Below, in pieces: positions 29,716 through 64,000 of a DNA stretch of 64,000 nt; position 1 is the stretch's first letter; each line of letters opens with the position of its first letter. The DNA comes from Eledone cirrhosa (Eukaryota). The translations under genes were made by a program, and so were the position numbers. The stretch is taken from contig CAXHJY010000973.1 of assembly GCA_964016885.1 (NCBI GenBank), forward strand, positions 607,914 through 671,913, written 5' to 3'. Below the pieces are notes generated by a model, which was given only the letters and a program-made list of their open reading frames with translations, ran no database searches and was not told the origin of the DNA.

Positions 29716-29838
29716 TTATACTTTTCAGTTAGTTTAGCATGTGGGTGACTGATAGGTTACTAGGTAACCAGCTAGAAAGTTAATAGTTTATATTCTGTTA
29801 GCAGAACTGTATTGCAGTTGTAACTGTGATGTTTGGCT

Positions 29839-31496
29839 CTTAACAGATTGTTAGTGTCCACCTAACCCCTACAAGATGTTACGGTATGGTTAGTAATTGG
29901 TTCTTAACAGATTGTTAGGGTCCACCTAGCCCCTACAAGATGTTACGGTATGGTTAGTAATTGGTTCTTAACAGATTGTTAGGGTTCACCTAACCCCTAC
30001 AAGATGTTACGGTATGGTTAGTAATTGGTTCTTAACAGATTGTTAGTGTCCACCTAACCCCTACAAGATGTTACGGTATGGTTAGTAATTGGTTCTTATC
30101 AGATTGTTAGTGTCCACCTAACCCCTACAAGATGTTACGGTATGGTTAGTAATTGGTTCTTAACAGATTGTTAGTGTCCACCTAACCCCTACAAGATGTT
30201 ACGGTATGGTTAGTAATTGGTTCTTAACAGATTGTTAGGGTCCACCTAACCCCTACAAGATGTTACGGTATGGTTAGTAATTGGTTCTTAACAGATTGTT
30301 AGGGTCCACCTAACCCCTACAAGATGTTATGGTATGGCTAGTAATTGGTTCTTAACAGATTGTTAGGGTTCACCTAACCCCTACAAGATGTTACGGTATG
30401 GTTAGTAATTGGTTCTTATCAGATTGTTAGGGTCCACCTAGCCCCTACAAGATGCTACGGTGTGGTTAGTAATTGGTTCTTATCAGATTGTTAGGGTCCA
30501 CCTAACCCCTACAAGATGCTACGGTATGGTTAGTAATTGGTTCTTAACAGATTGTTAGGGTCCACCTAACCCCTACAAGACGCTGTGGTATGGTTAGTAA
30601 TTGGTTCTTAACAGATTGTTAGTGTCCACCTAACCCCTACAAGATGTTACGGTATGGTTAGTAATTGGTTCTTATCAGATTGTTAGGGTCCACCTAGCCC
30701 CTACAAGATGTTACGGTATGGTTAGTAATTGGTTCTTATCAGATTGTTAAGATCCACCTAACCCCTACAAGATGCTACGGTATGGTTAGTAATTGGTTCT
30801 TAACAGATTGTTAGGGTCCACCTAGCCCCTACAAGATGTTACGGTATGGTTAGTAATTGGTTCTTATCAGATTGTTAGGGTCCACCTAACCCCTACAAGA
30901 CGCTGTGGTATGGTTAGTAATTGGTTCTTATCAGATTGTTAGGGTCCACCTAGCCCCTACAAGATGTTACGGTACGGTGAGTAATTGGTTCTTATCAGAT
31001 TGTTAGGGTCCACCTAACCCCTACAAGATATTACGGTATGGTTAGTAATTGGTTCTTATCAGATTGTTAGGGTCCACCTAACCCCTACAAGATGTTACGG
31101 TATGGTTAGTAATTGGTTCTTAACAGATTGTTAGTGTCCACCTAACCCCTACAAGATGTTACGGTATGGTTAGTAATTGGTTCTTAACAGATTGTTAGGG
31201 TTCACCTAACCCCTACAAGATGTTACGGTATGGTTAGTAACTGGTTCTTATCAGATTGTTAGGGTCCACCTAACCCCTACAAGATGTTATGGTATGGTTA
31301 GTAATTGGTTAACAGATTGTTAGGGTCCACCTAACCCCAACAAGATGCTACGGTATGGTTAGTAATTGGTTCTTAACAGATTGTTAGGGTCCACCTAACC
31401 CCTACAAGATGCTGTGGTATGGTTAGTAATTGGTTCTCATCAGATTGTTAGGGTCCACCTAACCCCAACAAGATGTTACAGTATGGTTAGTAATTG
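29839..31496. repeat. 64-bp tandem repeat, ~26 copies
   Basis: Unit CTTAACAGATTGTTAGGGTCCACCTAACCCCTACAAGATGTTACGGTATGGTTAGTAATTGGTT. TAACAGATTG occurs at 29841, 29905 and onward. Confidence 0.98.
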
Positions 31497-37425: not shown

Positions 37426-38434
37426 ATGATATCACTGCTCTACACCAACACCAAAGCCCAAGTCATTACACCTGATGGGATGACAGAGTTCTTTGAGATA
37501 CTGGCTGGAGTGCTCCAGGGAGATACATTGGCTCCCTACCTTTTTATCATCGTAGTGGACTATTGTATGCGCCTTGCACTGGAGAAACACCAGGACTCTG
37601 GCTTTACTGTAGCACCGGCTCAGAGCAGGAGAGTTGGGGCGAAAAAGGTATTGGATGCTGAATTTGCCGACGACATAGTTTTGGTGACAAATACAGTGAA
37701 GGAGGCAGAGGATTTGATGCGGGAGGTTGAGACTGTGTCGATGAGTGTGGGGCTGAGAATGAATGAGACTAAAACAAAATATCTGGTAGAGAATGTTGAG
37801 AAGCCAGAGGGGATCACTAATGTTGGCGGGTAGCCGCTGGAATTGGTTGAGGACTTCCTGTATTTGGGAGCAAAGATTGGGAATACGGAAGATGATGTGG
37901 TTGAGAGGAAGAGCAAGGCCTGGGCGGCGTGTCACAGCTTGAGATCGGTGTGGCAGTCGGACCTTCGTAGAGACCTGAAAATCCGCCTCTTCATTGCTGT
38001 AGTGGAGTCTGTGCTGCTGTATGGGTCTGAGACTTGGACACTGACCAAGAGACTCACTCAGGTGGTGGATGGGTGCTACACGAGAATGCTGAGGATGGCT
38101 CTGAACATTAATCAGTATACACTGAGGATGAAAAACTCAGAGCTGTATGGGAGCATCCCAAAAGTCAGCTCAAAAGTGACACAGAGAAGACTGAGGTTGG
38201 CTGGACATGCTCACCGACATCCAGAGTTGACATTGCACTCAGTGCTCCTTTGGGAGCCCCTACATGGACACACTAGAAGAGGAAGACCAAGGTTAACATA
38301 TGTTGATGCCCTAAGGACAGACACTGGTCTGTTGGAGATGCAGGATATGGCAGCGATAATGAGGGACAGAGACCGCTGGAGAGAACTCGTCCATGGATCT
38401 CGGGAATTTTACCCGCCTTAGATAGATAGATAGA
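37426..38434 (+). mobile_element. 5'-truncated RTE-clade LINE (C-terminal half of reverse transcriptase) with one in-frame stop at 37831-37833 and a (TAGA)n tail
   Basis: Motifs GVLQGDTLAPYLF, EFADD, FLYLG, ESVLLYGSETW, RRLRLAGH, GRP and DRDRWR. ORFs 37426 and 37843 are in frame, and the terminal TAG runs into TAGATAGATAGA. Confidence 0.95.
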
Positions 38435-38446
38435 TATATATATATT

Positions 38447-38477
<31 letters not shown>

Positions 38478-38491
38478 AATATATATATATA

Positions 38492-38523
<32 letters not shown>

Positions 38524-39001
38524 AATATATATATATATAAATATATATATATATAAATATATATATATAAATATATATATATATAAATATATATATATAT
38601 AAATATATATATATATAAATATATATATATATAAATATATATATATATAAATATATATATATATAAATATATATATATATAAATATATATATATAAATAT
38701 ATATATATAAATATAAATATATATATATATAAATATATATATATATAAATATATATATATATAAATATATATATATATAAATATATATATATAAATATAA
38801 ATATATATAAATATAAATATATATATATATAAATATATATATATAAATATATATATATATAAATATATATATATATAAATATATATATATAAATATATAT
38901 ATATAAATATATAAATATATATATATATAAATATATATATATATAAATATATATATATAAATATATATATATAAATATATATATATAAATATATATATAT
39001 A

Positions 39002-39079
<78 letters not shown>

Positions 39080-39367
39080 TATATATATAAATATATATAT
39101 AAATATATATATATAAATATATATATATAAATATATATATATAAACAATTAAGTTAAAGATGTACATCCACATATGTATACTGAAATACTAGTATGCATA
39201 TGAATACACACACGTATACATATGTAGATGTACCGAGTTTTTCACTGGTCACTTTACTGTGAGTGTCCAGCTATTCTGTATGTAAACACACAGACAAACC
39301 GGTTTTTAGAGTCATACTGGTTTTTGAGGAAACACCTTTCCTCTATTCTCCAGAAAGCCAGGCAAGG

Positions 39368-39412
39368 AATATTGAACTAGTTTCGATGTTGTTACATCTC
39401 ATCAGCAATATT
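39368..39412 (-). ncRNA. Type I hammerhead ribozyme (copy 1)
   Basis: Minus strand reads AATATTG-CTGATGA-GATGT(AACA)ACATC-GAAAC-TA-GTT^CAATATT. Confidence 0.9.
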
Positions 39413-39833
39413 TACCTATCTTCCGGCCTCTCTAGAGAATCGTAAAAGCACATATCGTTATATGCTTTTTCTATGAAAATTAGTAGTGGGCAGACTAATT
39501 TGCATAGAGCGTGAGTACGTACCGGTTCAACGGAGACGATAAAAACAAATAACGAAACGAAATTAAATTTCGTTTCATTTGTAACTCACTTTTGTATGAC
39601 TGACGCTTAAACAATTAAGTTAAAGATGTACATCCACATATGTATACTGAAATACTAGTATGCATATGAATACACACACGTATACATATGTAGATGTACC
39701 GAGTTTTTCACTGGTCACTTTACTGTGAGTGTCCAGCTATTCTGTATGTAAACACACAGACAAACCGGTTTTTAGAGTCATACTGGTTTTTGAGGAAACA
39801 CCTTTCCTCTATTCTCCAGAAAGCCAGGCAAGG

Positions 39834-39878
39834 AATATTGAACTAGTTTCGATGTTGTTACATCTCATCAGCAATATT
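39834..39878 (-). ncRNA. Type I hammerhead ribozyme (copy 2)
   Basis: Same motif, +466 bp. Confidence 0.9.
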
Positions 39879-40299
39879 TACCTATCTTCCGGCCTCTCTA
39901 GAGAATCGTAAAAGCACATATCGTTATATGCTTTTTCTATGAAAATTAGTAGTGGGCAGACTAATTTGCATAGAGCGTGAGTACGTACCGGTTCAACGGA
40001 GACGATAAAAACAAATAACGAAACGAAATTAAATTTCGTTTCATTTGTAACTCACTTTTGTATGACTGACGCTTAAACAATTAAGTTAAAGATGTACATC
40101 CACATATGTATACTGAAATACTAGTATGCATATGAATACACACACGTATACATATGTAGATGTACCGAGTTTTTCACTGGTCACTTTACTGTGAGTGTCC
40201 AGCTATTCTGTATGTAAACACACAGACAAACCGGTTTTTAGAGTCATACTGGTTTTTGAGGAAACACCTTTCCTCTATTCTCCAGAAAGCCAGGCAAGG

Positions 40300-40344
40300 A
40301 ATATTGAACTAGTTTCGATGTTGTTACATCTCATCAGCAATATT
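40300..40344 (-). ncRNA. Type I hammerhead ribozyme (copy 3)
   Basis: Same motif, +932 bp. Confidence 0.9.
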
Positions 40345-40765
40345 TACCTATCTTCCGGCCTCTCTAGAGAATCGTAAAAGCACATATCGTTATATGCTTT
40401 TTCTATGAAAATTAGTAGTGGGCAGACTAATTTGCATAGAGCGTGAGTACGTACCGGTTCAACGGAGACGATAAAAACAAATAACGAAACGAAATTAAAT
40501 TTCGTTTCATTTGTAACTCACTTTTGTATGACTGACGCTTAAACAATTAAGTTAAAGATGTACATCCACATATGTATACTGAAATACTAGTATGCATATG
40601 AATACACACACGTATACATATGTAGATGTACCGAGTTTTTCACTGGTCACTTTACTGTGAGTGTCCAGCTATTCTGTATGTAAACACACAGACAAACCGG
40701 TTTTTAGAGTCATACTGGTTTTTGAGGAAACACCTTTCCTCTATTCTCCAGAAAGCCAGGCAAGG

Positions 40766-40810
40766 AATATTGAACTAGTTTCGATGTTGTTACATCTCAT
40801 CAGCAATATT
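40766..40810 (-). ncRNA. Type I hammerhead ribozyme (copy 4)
   Basis: Same motif, +1398 bp. Confidence 0.9.
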
Positions 40811-41231
40811 TACCTATCTTCCGGCCTCTCTAGAGAATCGTAAAAGCACATATCGTTATATGCTTTTTCTATGAAAATTAGTAGTGGGCAGACTAATTTG
40901 CATAGAGCGTGAGTACGTACCGGTTCAACGGAGACGATAAAAACAAATAACGAAACGAAATTAAATTTCGTTTCATTTGTAACTCACTTTTGTATGACTG
41001 ACGCTTAAACAATTAAGTTAAAGATGTACATCCACATATGTATACTGAAATACTAGTATGCATATGAATACACACACGTATACATATGTAGATGTACCGA
41101 GTTTTTCACTGGTCACTTTACTGTGAGTGTCCAGCTATTCTGTATGTAAACACACAGACAAACCGGTTTTTAGAGTCATACTGGTTTTTGAGGAAACACC
41201 TTTCCTCTATTCTCCAGAAAGCCAGGCAAGG

Positions 41232-41276
41232 AATATTGAACTAGTTTCGATGTTGTTACATCTCATCAGCAATATT
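41232..41276 (-). ncRNA. Type I hammerhead ribozyme (copy 5)
   Basis: Same motif, +1864 bp. Confidence 0.9.
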
Positions 41277-42096
41277 TACCTATCTTCCGGCCTCTCTAGA
41301 GAATCGTAAAAGCACATATCGTTATATGCTTTTTCTATGAAAATTAGTAGTGGGCAGACTAATTTGCATAGAGCGTGAGTACGTACCGGTTCAACGGAGA
41401 CGATAAAAACAAATAACGAAACGAAATTAAATTTCGTTTCATTTGTAACTCACTTTTGTATGACTGACGCTTAAACAATTAAGTTAAAGATGTACATCCA
41501 CATATGTATACTGAAATACTAGTATGCATATGAATACACACACGTATACATATGTAGATGTACCGAGTTTTTCACTGGTCACTTTACTGTGAGTGTCCAG
41601 CTATTCTGTATGTAAACACACAGACAAACCGGTTTTTAGAGTCATACTGGTTTTTGAGGAAACTAGTTCAATATTCCTTGCCTGGCTTTCTGGAGAATAG
41701 AGGAAAGGTGTTTCCTCAAAAACCAGTATGACTCTAAAAACCGGTTTGTCTGTGTGTTTACATACAGAATAGCTGGACACTCACAGTAAAGTGACCAGTG
41801 AAAAACTCGGTACATCTACATATGTATACGTGTGTGTATTCATATGCATACTAGTATTTCAGTATACATATGTGGATGTACATCTTTAACTTAATTGTTT
41901 AAGCGTCAGTCATACAAAAGTGAGTTACAAATGAAACGAAATTTAATTTCGTTTCGTTATTTGTTTTTATCGTCTCCGTTGAACCGGTACGTACTCACGC
42001 TCTATGCAAATTAGTCTGCCCACTACTAATTTTCATAGAAAAAGCATATAACGATATGTGCTTTTACGATTCTCTAGAGAGGCCGGAAGATAGGTA

Positions 42097-42141
42097 AATA
42101 TTGCTGATGAGATGTAACAACATCGAAACTAGTTCAATATT
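42097..42141 (+). ncRNA. Type I hammerhead ribozyme (inverted copy), predicted cleavage after 42134
   Basis: Stem I AATATTG(42097-42103)/CAATATT(42135-42141), CTGATGA 42104-42110, stem II GATGT/ACATC, GAAA 42125-42128, palindromic stem III ACTAGT, GUU cleavage triplet. Confidence 0.9.
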
Positions 42142-42654
42142 CCTTGCCTGGCTTTCTGGAGAATAGAGGAAAGGTGTTTCCTCAAAAACCAGTATGACTC
42201 TAAAAACCGGTTTGTCTGTGTGTTTACATACAGAATAGCTGGACACTCACAGTAAAGTGACCAGTGAAAAACTCGGTACATCTACATATGTATACGTGTG
42301 TGTATTCATATGCATACTAGTATTTCAGTATACATATGTGGATGTACATCTTTAACTTAATTGTTTAAGCGTCAGTCATACAAAAGTGAGTTACAAATGA
42401 AACGAAATTTAATTTCGTTTCGTTATTTGTTTTTATATATATATAAATATATATATATAAATATATATATATAAATATATAAATATATATATATAAATAT
42501 ATATATATAAATATATATATATAAATATATATATAAATATAAATATATATATAAATATATATATATAAATATAAATATATATATAAATATATATATAAAT
42601 ATATATATATATAAATATATATATAAATAAATATATATATAAATATAAATAAAT

Positions 42655-42705
<51 letters not shown>

Positions 42706-42722
42706 AATAAATATATATAAAT

Positions 42723-42753
<31 letters not shown>

Positions 42754-42760
42754 AATAAAT

Positions 42761-42791
<31 letters not shown>

Positions 42792-42800
42792 AATAAATAT

Positions 42801-42831
<31 letters not shown>

Positions 42832-42838
42832 AATAAAT

Positions 42839-42869
<31 letters not shown>

Positions 42870-42908
42870 AATATATATATATATAAATATATATATATAT
42901 AAATAAAT

Positions 42909-42939
<31 letters not shown>

Positions 42940-42946
42940 AATAAAT

Positions 42947-42977
<31 letters not shown>

Positions 42978-43007
42978 AATAAATATATATATATATAAAT
43001 ATATATG

Positions 43008-43041
<34 letters not shown>

Positions 43042-43042
43042 A

Positions 43043-43153
<111 letters not shown>

Positions 43154-43317
43154 AATATATATATATACAGTATTTTCCGTTGTGTTGTAATATAAATATT
43201 ACACACAGTAGATTATCAGCTCACGTAGAGTTTGCTCGACGGTTCCAGTTGTAGTTCCAAAGGTAATCCGGAGAAAAATAGAAAGATTTGAATGGATACA
43301 GTTTAGTTGAAAGGAAT

Positions 43318-49302: not shown

Positions 49303-49649
49303 ATCATCATCATCATCATCATTTCATTTTACGTCCGCTTTTCCCTGCTTGCAAGGGTGGGACGGGAACTGATTTTGGCTTGATTTCTACAGCTGGATGC
49401 CCTTCCTAACACCAACCTCATTTACAGTGAGTGCTGGGTGTTTTTTTGCCGTGGTACCTCCACGACCACTTTGCAGTGGAATGATAGGGACCCCAGTCCC
49501 TATCATCTCATTTCTACAGCTGAGTAAACTGGAGCAATGTGAAATAAAGTGCCTTGCTCAAGGAAACAACACATCACCCGGTCTGAGAATTGAACTCAAC
49601 CTTTCGATTGCAAGCCCAATGCTCTAACCACTAAGCCATGTGCCTCCAT
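49303..49649 (-). mobile_element. SINE family C, full length
   Basis: tRNA-like head, CORE-like block, internal hairpin, RTE-like tail and (TGA)n. Confidence 0.92.
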
Positions 49650-52855: not shown

Positions 52856-53197
52856 ATCATCATCATCATTCATTTTACGTCCGCTTTTCCCTGCTTGCAA
52901 GGGTGGGACAGGAACTGATTCTGGCTTGATTTCTACAGCTGGATGCCCTTCCTAACACCAACCTCATTTACAGTGAGTGCTGGGTGCTTTTTTGTTGTGG
53001 CACCTCCACGACCACTTTGCAGTGGAATGATAGGGACCCCAGTCCCTATCATCTCATTTCTCCAGCTGAGTAAACTGGAGCAATGTGAAATAAAGTGTCT
53101 TGCTCAAGGAAACAACACATCACCTGGTCTGAGAATTGAACTCACAACCTTTCGATTGCAAGACCAATGCTCTAACCACTAAGCCATGTGCCTCCAT
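52856..53197 (-). mobile_element. SINE family C, full length
   Basis: Near-identical to 49303-49649. Confidence 0.92.
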
Positions 53198-54926: not shown

Positions 54927-56158
54927 GTGGGACAAAGCACACCTCTAAAATTGTCAAGAAGGCTGAGGGTGTCTTAGCATCACTCAGCAAGACATTTGTC
55001 AGCCGCTCTCCAGCTATCTATTTAAAGCTGTATATAGCTATGGTGTGTCCACACTTTGAATTTACATCACCAGTCTGGAACCCCTATCTTGTTCAGAACA
55101 TTGACCGCCTTGCAACTGTTCAGAGACGTGCAACCAAATGAATACCCTCCATCTTGCTTCCCTGGGCATGGATACATTGAAGCTCCGACGTCTGGCAACT
55201 GACTTGGTAAACACCCACAATATTATTGACCATCTTGCCAACAACAACCCTGAGCACCTTTGTGAATTCCATATGTCTAACACATGTCTACAAAGTCAGA
55301 AAACAGCACGGTTCCTATGACTTTCGGAAACATTTTTTCATGCTCAGAGTTGCTGAAGCATGGAACAAACTACCTGCATCAGTTGTTAGCTGTCGAGACA
55401 CTGCATCCTTTAAAACCTCCATGGAACAAACTACCTGCCTCAGTTGTTAGCTGTCGAGACATTGCATCCTTTAAAACCTCCATGGAACAAACTCCCTGCA
55501 TCAGTTGTTAGCTGTCGAGACACTGCATCCTTTAAAACCTCCATGGAACAAACTCCCTGCATCAGTTGTTAGCTGTCGAGACACTGCATCCTTTAAAACC
55601 TCCATGGAACAAACTACCTGCATCAGTTGTTAGCTGTCGAGACACTGCATCCTTTAAAACCTCCATGGAACACACTCTCTGCATCAGTTGTTAGCTGTTG
55701 AGACACTGCATCCTTTAAAACCTCCATGGAACAAACTACCTTCATCAGTTATTAGCTGTCGAGACACTGCATCCTTTAAAATCTCCATGGAACAAACTAC
55801 CTGCATCAGTTGTTAGCTGTCGAGACACTGCATCCTTTAAAACCTCCATGGAACAAACTACCTGCATCAGTTGTTAGCTGTCGAGACACTGCATCCTTTA
55901 AAACCTCCATGGAACAAACTACCTGCATCAGTTGTTAGCTGTAGAGGCACTGCATCCTTTAAAACCTCCATGCTTCCTGAGATTCTTCAACACTACACCT
56001 AATATTCCCCCTCCATACACACACACACACATGTATATCATGACTCATACACTATTCACTTCCCTGACATTTGTATATTATTTTATGTACTATACATGCA
56101 CCTTTGATGAGTTGTAGTGCACCTGAACACTGCACACAATAATTTTGATTATTATTTT
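54927..56158 (+). mobile_element. Degenerate CR1-like LINE 3' fragment (RT C-terminus and 3' end)
   Basis: Frameshifted motifs LYIAMVCPHFEFTSPVWNPY..NIDRLATVQRRATK, TLKLRRLATDL and RKHFFMLRVAEAWNKLPASVV...SFK, typical of CR1-group ORF2 C-termini. Confidence 0.85.
55359..55972. repeat. 61-bp tandem repeat, 10 copies, inside the CR1-like LINE
   Basis: Unit CATGGAACAAACTACCTGCATCAGTTGTTAGCTGTCGAGACACTGCATCCTTTAAAACCTC starts at 55359, 55420 and onward to 55908. Confidence 0.98.
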
Positions 56159-57307: not shown

Positions 57308-60300
57308 TATGTGTATATGTATGTGTGAGGAAGTTAGGTGTGTGTGTATATGTATGTGTGAGGAAGTTAGGTGAGTGTGTGTATATGTATGTGTGAGGAA
57401 GTTAGGTGTGTGTGTGTATATGTATGTGTGAGGAAGTTAGGTGTGTGTGTGTATATGTATGTGTGAGGAAGTTAGGTGGGTGTGTGTGTATATGTGTGAG
57501 GAAGTTAGGTGTGTGTGTGTATATGTATGTGTGAGGAAGTTAGGTGAGTGTGTGTATATGTATGTGTGAGGAAGTTAGGTGTGTGTGTATATGTATGTGT
57601 GAGGAAGTTAGGTGTGTGTGTATATGTATGTGTGAGGAAGTTAGGTGTGTGTGTGTATATGTATGTGTGAGGAAGTTAGGTGTGTGTCTGTGTATATGTA
57701 TGTGTGAGGAAGTTAGGTGTGTGTGTATATGTATGTGTGAGGAAGTTAGGTGTGTGTGTATATGTATGTGTGAGGAAGTTAGGTGTGTGTGTGTATATGT
57801 ATGTGTGAGGAAGTTAGGTGAGTGTGTGTATATGTATGTGTGAGGAAGTTAGGTGTGTGTGTGTATATGTATGTGTGAGGAAGTTAGGTGTGTGTGTATA
57901 TGTATGTGTGAGGAAGTTAGGTGTGTGTGTGTATATGTATGTGTGAGGAAGTTAGGTGAGTGTGTGTATATGTATGTGTGAGGAAGTTAGGTGAGTGTGT
58001 GTATATGTATGTGTGAGGAAGTTAGGTGAGTGTGTGTATATGTATGTGTGAGGAAGTTAGGTGAGTGTGTATATGTATGTGTGAGGAAGTTAGGTGTGTG
58101 TGTATATGTATGTGTGAGGAAGTTAGGTGTGTGTGTATATGTATGTGTGAGGAAGTTAGGTGTGTGTGTGTATATGTATGTGTGAGGAAGTTAGGTGTGT
58201 GTGTATATGTATGTGTGAGGAAGTTAGGTGTGTGTGTGTATATGTATGTGTGAGGAAGTTAGGTGAGTGTGTGTATATGTATGTGTGAGGAAGTTAGGTG
58301 AGTGTGTGTATATGTATGTGTGAGGAAGTTAGGTGAGTGTGTGTATATGTATGTGTGAGGAAGTTAGGTGAGTGTGTGTATATGTATGTGTGAGGAAGTT
58401 AGGTGAGTGTGTATATGTATGTGTGAGGAAGTTAGGTGTGTGTGTATATGTATGTGTGAGGAAGTTATGTGTGTGTGTGTATATGTATGTGTGAGGAAGT
58501 TAGGTGTGTGTGTGTATATGTATGTGTGAGGAAGTTAGGTGAGTGTGTGTATATGTATGTGTGAGGAAGTTAGGTGAGTGTGTGTATATGTATGTGTGAG
58601 GAAGTTAGGTGAGTGTGTGTATATGTATGTGTGAGGAAGTTAGGTGAGTGTGTATATGTATGTGTGAGGAAGTTAGGTGAGTGTGTGTATATGTATGTGT
58701 GAGGAAGTTAGGTGTGTGTGTGTATATGCATGTGTGAGGAAGTTATGTGTGTGTGTGTATATGTATGTGTGAGGAAGTTAGGTGAGTGTGTGTATATGTA
58801 TGTGTGAGGAAGTTAGGTGTGTGTGTGTATATGTATGTGTGAGGAAGTTAGGTGAGTGTGTATATGTATGTGTGAGGAAGTTAGGTGTGTGTGTATATGT
58901 ATGTGTGAGGAAGTTATGTGTGTGTCTGCGTATATGTATGTGTGAGGAAGTTAGGTGTGTGTGTGTATATGTATGTGTGAGGAAGTTAGGTGTGTGTGTA
59001 TATGTGTGTGTGAGGAAGTTATGTGTGTGTCTGTGTATATGTATGTGTGAGGAAGTTAGGTGTGTGTGTATATGTATGTGTAAGGAAGTTATGTGTGTGT
59101 GTGTATATGTATGTGTGAGGAAGTTATGTGTGTGTGTGTATATGTATGTGTGAGGAAGTTATGTGTGTGTGTGTATATGTATGTGTGAAGAAGTTAGGTG
59201 TGTGTGTATATGTATGTGTGAAGAAGTTATGTGTGTGTCTGTGTATATGTATGTGTGAGGAAGTTAGGTGTGTGTGTGTATATGTATGTGTGAGGAAGTT
59301 AGGTGTGTGTGTGTATATGTATGTGTGAGGAAGTTAGGTGTGTGTGTATATGTATGTGTGAGGAAGTTAGGTGTGTGTCTGTGTATATGTATGTGTGAGG
59401 AAGTTATGTGTGTGTGTGTATATGTATGTGTGAGGAAGTTATGTGTGTGTGTGTATATGTATGTGTGAGGAAGTTAGGTGTGTGTGTGTATATGTATGTG
59501 TGAGGAAGTTAGGTGTGTGTGTGTATATGTATGTGTGAGGAAGTTAGGTGTGTGTGTGTATATGTATGTGTGAAGAAGTTAGGTGTGTGTCTGCGTATAT
59601 GTATGTGTGAGGAAGTTAGGTGTGTGTGTGTATATGTATGTGTGAGGAAGTTAGGTGTGTGTGTATATGTATGTGTGAGGAAGTTAGATGTGTGTGTATA
59701 TGTATGTGTGAGGAAGTTAGGTGTGTGTGTATATGTATGTGTGAGGAAGTTATGTGTGTGTGTATATGTATGTGTGAGGAAGTTATGTGTGTGTGTATAT
59801 GTATGTGTGAGTAAGTTAGGTGTGTGTGTATATGTATGTGTGAGGAAGTTAGGTGAGTGTGTATATGTATGTGTGAGGAAGTTAGGTGTGTGTGTATATG
59901 TATGTGTGAGGAAGTTATGTGTGTGTGTGTATATGTATGTGTGAGGAAGTTAGATGTGTGTCTGTGTATATGTATGTGTGAGGAAGTTAGGTGTGTGTGT
60001 TTATATGTATGTGTGAGGAAGTTAGGTGTGTGTGTATATGTATGTGTGAGGAAGTTAGGTGTGTGTGTGTATATGTATGTGTGAGGAAGTTAGGTGTGTG
60101 TGTGTATATGTATGTGTGAGGAAGTTAGGTGTGTGTGTATATGTATGTGTGAGGAAGTTATGTGTGTGTGTGTATATGTATGTGTGAGGAAGTTATGTGT
60201 GTGTCTGTGTATATGTATGTGTGAGGAAGTTAGGTGTGTGTGTATATGTATGTGTAAGGAAGTTATGTGTGTGTGTGTATATGTATGTGTGAGGAAGTTA

Positions 60301-63300
60301 TGTGTGTGTGTGTATATGTATGTGTGAAGAAGTTAGGTGTGTGTGTATATGTATGTGTGAAGAAGTTAGGTGTGTGTCTGTGTATATGTATGTGTGAGGA
60401 AGTTAGGTGTGTGTGTGTATATGTATGTGTGAGGAAGTTAGGTGTGTGTGTGTATATGTATGTGTGAGGAAGTTAGGTGTGTGTGTATATGTATGTGTGA
60501 GGAAGTTAGGTGTGTGTCTGTGTATATGTATGTGTGAGGAAGTTATGTGTGTGTGTGTATATGTATGTGTGAGGAAGTTATGTGTGTGTGTATATGTATG
60601 TGTGAGGAAGTTAGGTGTGTGTGTATATGTATGTGTGAGGAAGTTAGGTGTGTGTGTGTATATGTATGTGTGAGGAAGTTAGGTGTGTGTGTGTATATGT
60701 ATGTGTGAGGAAGTTAGGTGTGTGTGTATATGTATGTGTGAGGAAGTTAGGTGTGTGTCTGTGTATATGTATGTGTGAGGAAGTTATGTGTGTGTGTGTA
60801 TATGTATGTGTGAGGAAGTTATGTGTGTGTGTGTATATGTATGTGTGAGGAAGTTAGGTGTGTGTGTGTATATGTATGTGTGAGGAAGTTAGGTGTGCGT
60901 GTATATGTATGTGTGAGGAAGTTAGGTGTGTGTCTGTGTATATGTATGTGTGAGGAAGTTATGTGTGTGTGTGTATATGTATGTGTGAGGAAGTTATGTG
61001 TGTGTGTGTATATGTATGTGTGAGGAAGTTAGGTGTGTGTGTGTATATGTATGTGTGAGGAAGTTAGGTGTGTGTGTGTATATGTATGTGTGAGGAAGTT
61101 AGGTGTGTGTGTGTATATGTATGTGTGAAGAAGTTAGGTGTGTGTCTGCGTATATGTATGTGTGAGGAAGTTAGGTGTGTGTGTGTATATGTATGTGTGA
61201 GGAAGTTAGGTGTGTGTGTATATGTATGTGTGAGGAAGTTAGATGTGTGTGTATATGTATGTGTGAGGAAGTTAGGTGTGTGTGTATATGTATGTGTGAG
61301 GAAGTTATGTGTGTGTGTATATGTATGTGTGAGGAAGTTATGTGTGTGTGTATATGTATGTGTGAGTAAGTTAGGTGTGTGTGTATATGTATGTGTGAGG
61401 AAGTTAGGTGAGTGTGTATATGTATGTGTGAGGAAGTTAGGTGTGTGTGTATATGTATGTGTGAGGAAGTTATGTGTGTGTGTGTATATGTATGTGTGAG
61501 GAAGTTAGATGTGTGTCTGTGTATATGTATGTGTGAGGAAGTTAGGTGTGTGTGTTTATGTATGTGTGAGGAAGTTAGGTGTGTGTGTGTATATGTATGT
61601 GTGAGGAAGTTAGGTGTGTGTGTATATGTATGTGTGAGGAAGTTAGGTGTGTGTGTGTATATGTATGTGTGAGGAAGTTAGGTGTGTGTGTATATGTATG
61701 TGTGAGGAAGTTAGGTGTGTGTGTGTATATGTATGTGTGAGGAAGTTAGGTGTGTGTGTATATGTATGTGTGAGGAAGTTAGGTGTGTGTGTGTATATGT
61801 ATGTGTGAGGAAGTTAGGTGTGTGTGTTTATGTATGTGTGAGGAAGTTAGGTGTGTGTGTGTATATGTATGTGTGAGGAAGTTAGGTGTGTGTGTATATG
61901 TATGTGTGAGGAAGTTAGGTGTGTGTGTGTATATGTATGTGTGAGGAAGTTAGGTGTGTGTGTGTATATGTATGTGTGAGGAAGTTAGGTGTGTGTGTAT
62001 ATGTATGTGTGAGGAAGTTAGGTGTGTGTGTGTATATGCATGTGTGAGGAAGTTATGTGTGTGAGTATATGTATGTGTGAGGAAGTTAGGTATGTGTGTG
62101 TATATGTATGTGTGAGGAAGTTAGGTGTGTGTGTGTATATGTATGTGTGAGGAAGTTAGGTGTGTGTGTATATGTATATGTGAGGAAGTTAGGTGGGTGT
62201 GTGTATATGTATGTGTGAGGAAGTTATGTGTGTGTGTGTATATGTATGTGTGAGGAAGTTAGGTGTGTGTGTATATGTATGTGTGAGGAAGTTAGATGTG
62301 TGTGTATATGCATGTGTGAGGAAGTTAGGTGTGTGTGTATATGTATGTGTGAGGAAGTTAGATGTGTGTGTATATGCATGTGTGAGGAAGTTATGTGTGT
62401 GTGTGTATATGTATGTGTGAGGAAGTTAGGTGTGTGTGTGTATATGTATGTGTGAGGAAGTTAGGTGTGTGTGTATATGTATGTGAGAAAGTTAGATGTG
62501 TGTGTATATGTATGTGTGAGGAAGTTAGGTGTGTGTGTGTATATGTATGTGTGAGGAAGTTAGGTGTGTGTGTATATGTATGTGTGAGGAAGTTAGGTGT
62601 GTGTGTGTATATGTATGTGTGAGGAAGTTAGGTGTGTGTCTGTGTATATGTATGTGTGAGGAAGTTAGGTGTGTGTGTTTATGTATGTGTGAGGAAGTTA
62701 GGTGTGTGTGTGTATATGTATGTGTGAGGAAGTTAGGTGTGTGTGTATATGTATGTGTGAGGAAGTTAGGTGTGTGTGTGTATATGTATGTGTGAGGAAG
62801 TTAGGTGTGTGTCTGTGTATATGTATGTGTGAGGAAGTTATGTGTGTGTGTGTATATGTATGTGTGAGGAAGTTAGGTGGGTGTGTATTTGTATGTGTGA
62901 GGAAGTTAGGTGTGTGTGTGTGTATATGTATGTGTGAGGAAGTTAGGTGTGTGTGTATATGTATGTGTGAGGAAGTTATGTGTGTGTGTGTATATGTATG
63001 TGTGAGAAAGTTATGTGTGTGTGTGTATATGTATGTGTGAGGAAGTTATGTGTGTGTGTGTATATGTATGTGTGAGGAAGTTAGGTGTGTGTGTATATGT
63101 ATGTGTGAGGAAGTTAGGTGTGTGTGTGTATATGTATGTGTGAGGAAGTTAGGTGTGTGTGTATATGTATGTGTGAGGAAGTTAGGTGTGTGTGTGTATA
63201 TGTATGTGTGAGGAAGTTAGGTGTGTGTGTGTATATGTATGTGTGAGGAAGTTAGGTGTGTGTGTATATGTATGTGTGAGGAAGTTAGGTGTGTGTGTGT

Positions 63301-64000
63301 GTATATGTATGTGTGAGGAAGTTAGGTGTGTGTGTATATGTATGTGTGAGGAAGTTAGGTGTGTGTGTGTATATGTATGTGTGAGGAAGTTAGGTGTGTG
63401 TGTATATGTATGTGTGAGGAAGTTAGGTGTGTGTGTGTATATGTATGTGTGAGGAAGTTAGGTGTGTGTGTGTATATGTATGTGTGAGGAAGTTAGGTGT
63501 GTGTGTATATGTATGTGTGAGGAAGTTAGGTGAGTGTGTATATGTATGTGTGAGGAAGTTAGGTGTGTGTGTATATGTATGTGTGAGGAAGTTATGTGTG
63601 TGTGTGTATATGTATGTGTGAGGAAGTTAGATGTGTGTCTGTGTATATGTATGTGTGAGGAAGTTAGGTGTGTGTGTTTATGTATGTGTGAGGAAGTTAG
63701 GTGTGTGTGTGTATATGTATGTGTGAGGAAGTTAGGTGTGTGTGTATATGTATGTGTGAGGAAGTTAGGTGTGTGTGTGTATATGTATGTGTGAGGAAGT
63801 TAGGTGTGTGTCTGTGTATATGTATGTGTGAGGAAGTTATGTGTGTGTGTGTATATGTATGTGTGAGGAAGTTAGGTGTGTGTGTGTATATGTATGTGTG
63901 AGGAAGTTAGGTGAGTGTGTATATGTATGTGTGAGGAAGTTAGGTGTGTGTGTATATGTATGTGTGAGGAAGTTATGTGTGTGTGTGTATATGTATGTGT
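57308..64000. repeat. 33-37-bp GT-rich satellite GTATATGTATGTGTGAGGAAGTTAGGT(GT)n, ~190 copies; runs off the right edge
   Basis: Direct periodicity. Length variation is confined to the (GT)n segment. Confidence 0.99.

What the first reader, a model, noticed from the sequence alone, without database searches (positions are those of the whole stretch)
41669..42134. Much of the 466-nt monomer can fold into a viroid-like branched RNA, with G-U pairs favouring the ribozyme strand
Seen on the hammerhead-sense strand: GAGGAAA/TTTCCTC; CTGTGTGT/ACATACAG; a 20-bp stem GTACATCTACATATGTATAC(41810-41829)/GTATACATATGTGGATGTAC(41862-41881) enclosing GTGTGTGTA/TATGCATAC; GAAACGAAATT/AATTTCGTTTC flanked by ACAAAT/ATTTGT; CTATG-AAATTAGT/ACTAATTT-CATAG; AAAAGCATATA/TATGTGCTTTT; and AGCGT-AGT/ACT-ACGCT. 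Many imperfections are G-U on this strand but would be A-C on the other. Inference: selection acts on RNA structure rather than on DNA cruciforms, which independently supports a structured circular RNA.
Basis: partly seen in the sequence, partly recalled or inferred. Interest (0 to 1): 0.8.

Follow-up and report, generated by a model that had tools for sequence, protein, structure and literature searches.

The report
Conserved fold of a hammerhead retrozyme
This 466-base repeat is one unit of a common non-coding jumping element whose predicted branched RNA fold is kept, helix by helix, across three diverged families and whose copies carry likely RNA-editing scars, which points to a folded, probably circular RNA that is likely copied into DNA from two fixed start points by a Penelope-type enzyme.

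Summary
The fold is real, but it belongs to a known class, the metazoan non-LTR retrozyme. The ribozyme strand folds at z -11, the other at z -6; the gap exceeds shuffles (z -4.4) and vanishes without G-U pairs. Related families in this genome (one about 65% identical) keep the same helices; 17 of 128 pairs change on both sides. Changes shared between loci avoid stems (p 0.0006). The G-U bias is not pure selection: changes fixed in all units of one locus are 15 A>G against 0 T>C, an editing-like scar. Insertions are back-to-back arms in (TA)n; 38 of 38 with both ends called have one end at each of two fixed sites about 70 nt apart, the Penelope 'tail' signature, and both sites sit at conserved places in the fold. 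Circularity is inferred; no RNA run was available. The scan reported the two-arm layout and editing scars before, on other DNA.

The parts
41669..42134 (+). One 466-nt unit, from one predicted hammerhead cut site to the next (family 1, GUU subfamily). 'Phase' in this report = position in this unit.
39142..41663 (-). Left arm: 5.41 identical units, antisense; outer end at site B (phase 233) against (TA)n
41659..42436 (+). Right arm: 1.67 units, sense; outer end at site A (phase 302) against (TA)n
41659..41663 (.). Join of the two arms, 5-nt overlap GAAAC
42097..42141 (+). Type I hammerhead: stem I 7 bp, CUGAUGA (42104-42110), stem II 5 bp with AACA loop, GAAA, palindromic ACUAGU in place of a stable helix III, predicted cut after GUU at 42134
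   Evidence: Rfam HH9 33.1 bits, E 2.3e-6, below gathering 52; two-sided changes in stems I and II; two copies cofold through the palindrome
41669..41698 (+).
41700..41717 (+). Hairpin GAGGAAA/TTTCCTC; different letters, same hairpin in families 2 and 3
   Evidence: 3 of 7 pairs change on both sides
41726..41733 (+). 5' strand of the long-range helix with 41908-41915; best-conserved helix outside the ribozyme
   Evidence: 3 of 8 pairs change on both sides, 99% of cells paired
41810..41881 (+). 20-bp stem with inner hairpin; alternating purine-pyrimidine sequence, swollen to (TA)n in family 2
41890..41903 (+). Small hairpin CTTAA/TTAAG holding site B (arm ends at phases 227-234); an equivalent hairpin and end site in families 2 and 3
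41919..41998 (+). Domain closed by GTGAGT/ACTCAC, holding the GAAACGAAATT hairpin and the U-rich single strand with site A (41968-41970)
   Evidence: ends
42002..42065 (+). Two hairpins (CTATG-AAATTAGT stem; AAAAGCATATA stem). The first overlaps ATGCAAAT (42004-42011), kept in all three families; that this is an octamer promoter motif is recalled, not tested
38422..39145 (.). (TA)n-rich target, left
42434..43167 (.). (TA)n-rich target, right

Best explanation
The unit is a non-autonomous hammerhead retrozyme whose predicted branched fold is conserved across three families and likely serves as the circular RNA template that a Penelope-like reverse transcriptase copies from two fixed sites. Steps: (1) Tandem arrays are transcribed on the ribozyme strand (inferred; the A>G scar marks that strand as RNA). 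(2) Neighbouring hammerheads pair through the ACUAGU palindrome and cut out 466-nt monomers (inferred from anatomy and PMC4209133; not assayed). (3) The closing rod holds the two ends together and a host ligase closes the circle (inferred from other retrozymes, PMC7229834). (4) The paired RNA is sometimes A-to-I edited (scar shown, enzyme inferred). (5) A Penelope-like endonuclease nicks both strands of AT-rich DNA about 13 bp apart; one 3' end primes at site A and the other at site B (end rule and duplication shown, enzyme inferred). (6) Each polymerase runs round the template for a variable distance, and the two cDNAs join, often at a short overlap, giving back-to-back arms (layout shown). 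(7) Long arms can grow later by local duplication (shown). The conserved domain from the long-range helix to GTGAGT/ACTCAC, which brackets sites A and B, is the likely protein-binding signal (inferred).
For: Fold. Conservation: on 26 units, 93.9% of cells pair, 17 of 128 pairs change on both sides, and 0-5 of 500 shuffles reach the paired, two-sided and covariation measures; family 2 gives the same helix list, z -8.8; a family 3 unit folds at -131 vs -103. Changes shared by 3 or more loci fall 20 in stems to 34 in loops, against 138 to 80 for single-unit changes (p 0.0006). The cut triplet varies among GUU, GUC and GUA; GUG occurs in 2 of 492 unit records, which include overlapping loci. Scar: 15 A>G vs 0 T>C among 29 locus-fixed private changes in 65 loci, against 25 vs 25 among 222 single-unit changes; 5 of the 15 are in every copy of both arms. 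Ends: 38 of 55 loci have both ends at A or B, and all 38 have one of each. Target duplications of 13, 13, 13 and 16 bp at the 4 non-microsatellite loci inspected. Join positions are uniform round the unit, with no pile-up at the cut site (KS p 0.24, 47 joins). Two Penelope-like loci here have the same layout with one long and one short end in (TA)n: L143 and L136. Published parallels: tail at one end and inverted copy (PMC8557442, PMC3846280); two internal start sites, both strands cut and extended (PMC11167929).
Against: No expression, cleavage or circle data for this element. Within family 1, shared G-U-making changes do not outnumber A-C-making ones (7 vs 6), and 8 of 20 shared stem changes break a pair of the window fold. 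The decayed family 3 unit L223 shows no strand gap (z -0.5). The two-sided changes come mostly from a few family splits, so events are few; the 'further pair types' measure fell below its shuffles (64 vs 72.5). Eight of the 15 A>G changes come from one locus (L113); without it the count is 7 vs 0. Long arms show block duplications (L116 period 6, L051, a 30-unit arm), so arm length is no proof of rolling-circle copying. No Penelope-like locus among the 40 examined showed homology to the unit outside TA-rich stretches and neighbouring retrozyme copies. 17 of 55 loci have one arm or an end elsewhere. Loci were taken from best hits and from the first places on one contig, so they lean young.
Confidence: 0.7

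Rival explanations
1. Same element and same Penelope-type two-site priming, but the template is an uncut linear multimer transcribed from a uniform source array; no circle is needed, and the fold serves only protein binding and occasional cleavage.
For: In vitro the anole element uses unprocessed RNA and needs no ribozyme cut (PMC11167929). Helix III is weak. Uniform source arrays exist. 4 of 89 minority variants are mirrored in the other arm. Arrays can lengthen locally.
Against: Editing-like A>G changes sit in every unit of a locus, in both arms at L058, L112 and L120, and 8 together in every unit at L113; some step must have copied one edited unit many times. 85 of 89 minority variants are not mirrored. 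L036 has a private change in all 16 copies. The catalytic core and NUH triplet are kept across families.
Confidence: 0.2
2. The G-U excess and much of the stability are by-products (editing scars plus self-complementary TA/CA/TG-rich sequence); only the hammerhead and the two priming patches are selected.
For: A>G scar; 4 of the 12 window G-U pairs alternate with U-A in other loci; shared G-U vs A-C is 7 vs 6; the 20-bp stem is alternating sequence and becomes (TA)n in family 2.
Against: Two-sided changes outside the ribozyme in hairpin 41700-41717 and in the long-range helix; the same helix map at about 65% identity; shared changes avoid stems. This rival may hold for the 20-bp stem alone.
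Confidence: 0.07
3. A DNA-level satellite: the hairpins are cruciforms or ssDNA folds, and the arrays spread by DNA recombination or rolling-circle DNA copying.
For: DNA parameters also give a stable, +-biased fold; local duplication occurs in long arms.
Against: Nested and long-range helices are not cruciforms; a conserved hammerhead needs RNA; the A>G scar is strand-specific; fixed A+B ends with a target duplication.
Confidence: 0.03

Closest known systems
Metazoan non-LTR retrozymes (Cervera and de la Pena 2020, PMC7229834; Li, Clavereau and Pollet 2026, bioRxiv 10.64898/2026.07.22.740005)
   Same: Non-coding tandem units, low GC, one type I hammerhead per unit, highly self-paired prediction, target duplications longer than 4 bp, Penelope-like elements in the same genome, palindromic weak helix III as in axolotl HHR_Amex1.
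   Different: The unit is 466 nt, above the 170-400 nt of PMC7229834 but inside the 51-972 bp of the preprint. The word 'inverted' does not occur in the main text of PMC7229834; in the three of five parts of the preprint that I read, I saw no two-arm layout or fixed end sites, and tandem arrays are put down to local amplification. Circles were shown there, not here. No homologous pseudo-LTR was found here.
Endonuclease-positive Penelope-like elements: inverted copy, one-sided tail, two internal start sites (PMC8557442, PMC3846280, PMC11167929)
   Same: Head-to-head arms, extension at one end only, target duplication, AT-rich or microsatellite targets, hammerhead, internal initiation at a stem-loop.
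   Different: No ORF; both arms are multi-unit; the tail is about 70 nt against the published 30-40 nt (two Penelope-like loci here have about 53 and 60 nt).
Hammerhead viroids (Avsunviroidae; features recalled)
   Same: Size near 250-450 nt, branched high pairing, hammerhead.
   Different: Hammerhead on one polarity only, thousands of DNA copies, copied through DNA, no sign of RNA-to-RNA replication.
Newt satellite 2 (snRNA-type internal promoter; seen only as a citing sentence in PMC2220036)
   Same: Tandem hammerhead unit; a conserved ATGCAAAT here may be an internal promoter element.
   Different: No promoter test here; the original paper was not held.

Membership tests
Non-LTR retrozyme | Tandem units of a few hundred bases, each with a type I hammerhead | tested here: met
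   Rfam score is below the HH9 gathering cut-off, but core, stems and covariation are present
Non-LTR retrozyme | Dispersed, many copies, low GC, target duplication over 4 bp | tested here: met
   242 matches, 3,219, 17,923 for all families; GC 36%; duplications 13-16 bp
Non-LTR retrozyme | No coding capacity, no LTR/PBS/PPT | tested here: inconclusive
   Insertions consist only of unit sequence between flanks; no ORF, PBS or PPT scan was run on the unit itself
Non-LTR retrozyme | Highly self-paired unit RNA | tested here: met
   (prediction and comparison, no probing)
Non-LTR retrozyme | Self-cleavage; linear and circular RNA in vivo | not testable with these tools
   indirect support only
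Penelope-mobilised element | Inverted 5'-truncated copy with a tail at one end | tested here: met
   38 of 38 loci with both ends called, out of 55
Penelope-mobilised element | Homology to the pseudo-LTR of an autonomous element | tested here: inconclusive
   none in 40 GIY-YIG loci, taken from 150 scored of 10,597 candidates
Hammerhead viroid | Ribozyme on both polarities | tested here: not met
   core pattern only on the sense strand of the unit
Hammerhead viroid | No DNA counterpart | tested here: not met

The most novel reading that the evidence does not exclude
The conserved fold is a two-headed loading platform: one RNA circle presents a small hairpin (site B) and a U-rich strand (site A), 70 nt apart and clamped by two covarying helices, so that a dimeric Penelope enzyme starts both DNA ends on the same molecule, one at each site, and both run round the circle. 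Genomic copies are then a direct record of single edited circles, and the fold defines the RNA signal for Penelope priming, which has not been described in the papers read.
Probability: 0.35. Interest if true: 0.72.

Novelty: new member of a known kind. Interest (0 to 1): 0.47.

Why it matters
The class and its self-paired circles are known, so the fold alone is no surprise. What is added is comparative evidence that the body of a metazoan retrozyme, not only its ribozyme, is held to one architecture, and a map of two priming sites on that architecture. Published work proposes Penelope-like elements as the mobiliser but leaves the mechanism open. The strict one-A-one-B rule, the 13-bp duplication and the editing scars give direct tests in the existing in vitro Penelope system. 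It also warns that a G-U strand bias in retro-copied RNA can come from editing as well as from selection.

Tried and rejected
No RNA holder was listed; both read calls laid contigs only, so expression is untested. Horizontal transfer: runs under 17 organism labels hold part of the unit. In 3 of them, laid beside a run of organism A, family 2 and other host repeats were also present, in X4 at about the same ratio to family 1 as in organism A. Trace DNA or close relatives explain this, so the variants were not counted as independent covariation. Autonomous partner: the ORF beside the hammerhead in L227 is a separate RT with a PHD finger and no GIY-YIG match; the profile search of 40 GIY-YIG loci gave only retrozyme neighbours and TA-rich noise. 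Rfam at gathering thresholds missed the hammerhead; the miRNA and FasX hits are hairpin noise below their cut-offs. RNAalifold on the mixed alignment recovers only 74 pairs, partly because sequence-only alignment misplaces families 2 and 3, and it picks a different pairing for the 20-bp stem. The regex for family 2/3 ends has false calls and was used only qualitatively. Long arms as proof of rolling circle: rejected. The scan's look-up by sequence returned nothing. Print searches were made; none listed a paper on two-arm retrozyme insertions or on covariation across a metazoan retrozyme body, judged from titles, abstracts and the passages read. Supplements were not read; those of the bioRxiv preprint are closed, and Fig. 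S9 of PMC7229834 (the mobilisation model) may bear on novelty.

Full report
Observation. The interval is one unit of a 466-bp repeat. In the window it forms a left antisense arm of 5.41 identical units (39142-41663) and a right sense arm of 1.67 units (41659-42436), joined at a 5-nt overlap and flanked by (TA)n. The sense strand folds at -159.5 kcal/mol (z -11.15), the antisense at -130.3 (z -6.83). As circles the gap is -30.6 against -5.7 +/- 5.7 in 100 shuffles (z -4.4); it disappears when G-U is forbidden. So the asymmetry is real and rests on G-U pairs. A strand-neutral count of mismatches inside Watson-Crick helices gives 4 G-U to 0 A-C in the window unit, and 10 to 1 over one unit from each of three families (window, L168, L165; p 0.009 with composition). 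Of six units examined, L112 was the least biased (3 to 2).

Homologues. The genome (3.0 Gb) holds at least 242 close matches, 3,219 hits of a GUC-subfamily pattern, 13,907 of a second hammerhead type and 17,923 of a motif pair common to all; reversed-pattern controls gave 0. Family 2 was met by chance in L141 at about 65% identity and is colinear; family 3 is its relative. From 143 distinct units in 36 clusters I aligned 26: 20 of family 1, 4 of family 2 and 2 of family 3. With the window's 128 confident pairs, 93.9% of cells pair and 17 pairs change on both sides; 0 of 500 shuffles reach the paired or covariation scores and 5 of 500 the pair count, while 'further pair types' is below the shuffles. 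The sequences are related, so these are not probabilities, and most two-sided changes mark a few family splits. Independent folding of a family 2 unit gives the same helix list in different letters, with strand gap z -3.5; a family 1 subfamily unit gives -4.0 and a decayed family 3 unit -0.5; a better family 3 unit folds at -131 vs -103. The best-supported helices are hammerhead stems I and II, hairpin 32-49 and the long-range helix 58-65/240-247, each with 3 two-sided pairs. Changes shared by three or more loci fall 20 in confident stems (256 positions) and 34 in loops (156 positions); single-unit changes fall 138 and 80 (p 0.0006). That is the cleanest sign of selection on pairing.

What fails. 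AGCGT/ACGCT is not in the fold, is broken in 6 loci and is absent from families 2 and 3. The ACAAAT flank is broken in 15 loci. The 20-bp stem is alternating purine-pyrimidine sequence and becomes (TA)n in family 2, so its register is soft. Among shared changes at Watson-Crick pairs, 7 make G-U and 6 make A-C: no bias within family 1.

Editing scar. An earlier scan note suggested looking for it, and I tested it here. In 65 loci, 29 changes are private to one locus and present in all its units: 15 are A>G and none T>C on the ribozyme strand (p 6e-5), against 25 and 25 among 222 single-unit changes. They lie in 6 loci; 8 are in L113, and 5 are in both arms (L058, L112, L120). A-to-I editing of paired RNA, read as G by reverse transcriptase, is the established cause of such a pattern (recalled). 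It marks the ribozyme strand as the RNA template and as double-stranded, although pairing of the two arms in a read-through transcript could also be edited. It turns A-U into G-U without selection: 4 of the 12 window G-U pairs alternate with U-A elsewhere and 4 with a G-C or C-G pair, one pair doing both.

Ribozyme. Type I, with a 7-bp stem I continued into a rod of about 30 bp, a 5-bp stem II and a palindromic ACUAGU in place of helix III (Rfam HH9, E 2.3e-6, below gathering). Two copies cofold through the palindrome, the dimer mode described in PMC4209133 (passages) and for axolotl retrozymes (PMC7229834, passages). The triplet is GUU, GUC or GUA by family. The core occurs on one polarity of the unit only.

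Insertion footprint. Of 55 family 1 loci (the window, 29 from the best hits, 25 from the first places), 38 have both outer ends at phase 299-304 (A) or 226-235 (B): 23 A/B, 15 B/A, none A/A or B/B. Nine show one arm and 8 have an end elsewhere. The 47 joins are uniform round the unit; 30 overlap by 1-6 nt. Four loci outside microsatellites have duplications of 13, 13, 13 and 16 bp. Families 2 and 3 end at the aligned positions, with about a dozen loci showing one of each by a rough regex. Site B lies in a small hairpin just 5' of the long-range helix, and site A in a U-rich single strand inside the GTGAGT/ACTCAC domain. An inverted copy with a tail at one end is the published mark of Penelope-like elements (PMC8557442 and PMC3846280, passages); two internal start sites with both strands cut and extended were shown in vitro (PMC11167929, parts 1-2 of 4). 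Two decayed Penelope-like loci here, L143 and L136, have the same layout with tails of about 53 and 60 nt. No partner was identified by homology.

Circle or multimer. For a circle: arms cross the cut site many times, young arrays are uniform (window; L036, 14 of 14 full units identical), scars repeat in every unit, and only 4 of 89 minority variants are mirrored between arms. Against treating this as proof: a uniform source array gives a uniform linear template, the anole enzyme uses uncut RNA, and long arms show later block duplication. I put the circle model at 0.7.

Verdict. A real, conserved fold in a new member of a known class. The retrozyme-Penelope link is in print (PMC7229834; bioRxiv 2026.07.22.740005, parts 1-3 of 5). 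The scan has already reported the two-arm layout and editing scars on other DNA. What this report adds is the comparative test of the fold, the correction of the G-U inference and the placing of both priming sites on the fold. Interest 0.47.

Noticed in passing
window 42004-42011; all three families: ATGCAAAT is kept in families 1-3 about 125 nt before the cut site, with its C unpaired in the fold; it may be an internal promoter element overlaid on an RNA helix (octamer identity recalled).
   Followed up: partly
L141:7579-9001 (G000:C3): Second retrozyme family, about 65% identical, with a (TA)n expansion inside the long hairpin; its hammerhead type has 13,907 pattern hits.
   Followed up: yes
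L135 3' region, also L134 and L143; window 42086-42100: The long end of one Penelope-like family holds 14-15 nt complementary to the 5' strand of the retrozyme's extended stem I; 1 of 2,000 shuffles reached 15 nt, but this was noticed after the fact among about six families, so chance is not excluded.
   Followed up: partly
L136 and L143: Decayed Penelope-like elements (RT and GIY-YIG) inserted as inverted arms in (TA)n with one long and one short end; L134-type copies carry a minimal hammerhead-like motif with a palindromic helix III.
   Followed up: partly
G000:C1:5738332-5751969 (L241, L242): A 30-unit antisense arm with block-duplicated variants; B end on the left, A end on the right.
   Followed up: partly
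L129, L116: L129 has four alternating segments switching at the palindromic A hairpin; L116 has an internal jump from phase 272 to 98. Possible template switches.
   Followed up: no
L134, L136, L137, L138, L141, L142, L150: Further hammerhead-like motifs of other types turned up in a loose scan and on reading L141.
   Followed up: no
window 49584-49638 and 53129-53186 (-): Two tRNA-like matches just over the Rfam cut-off, probably SINE heads.
   Followed up: no
window 1-29243, 29833-31496, 55359-55972, 57310-64000: Satellites of 30, 64, 61 and 35 bp; the 30- and 35-bp arrays have strong GC skew.
   Followed up: no
L141:7100-7430: A very high-copy short element with an internal palindrome recurs beside many loci (L151, L153, L140) in (TA)n.
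   Followed up: no
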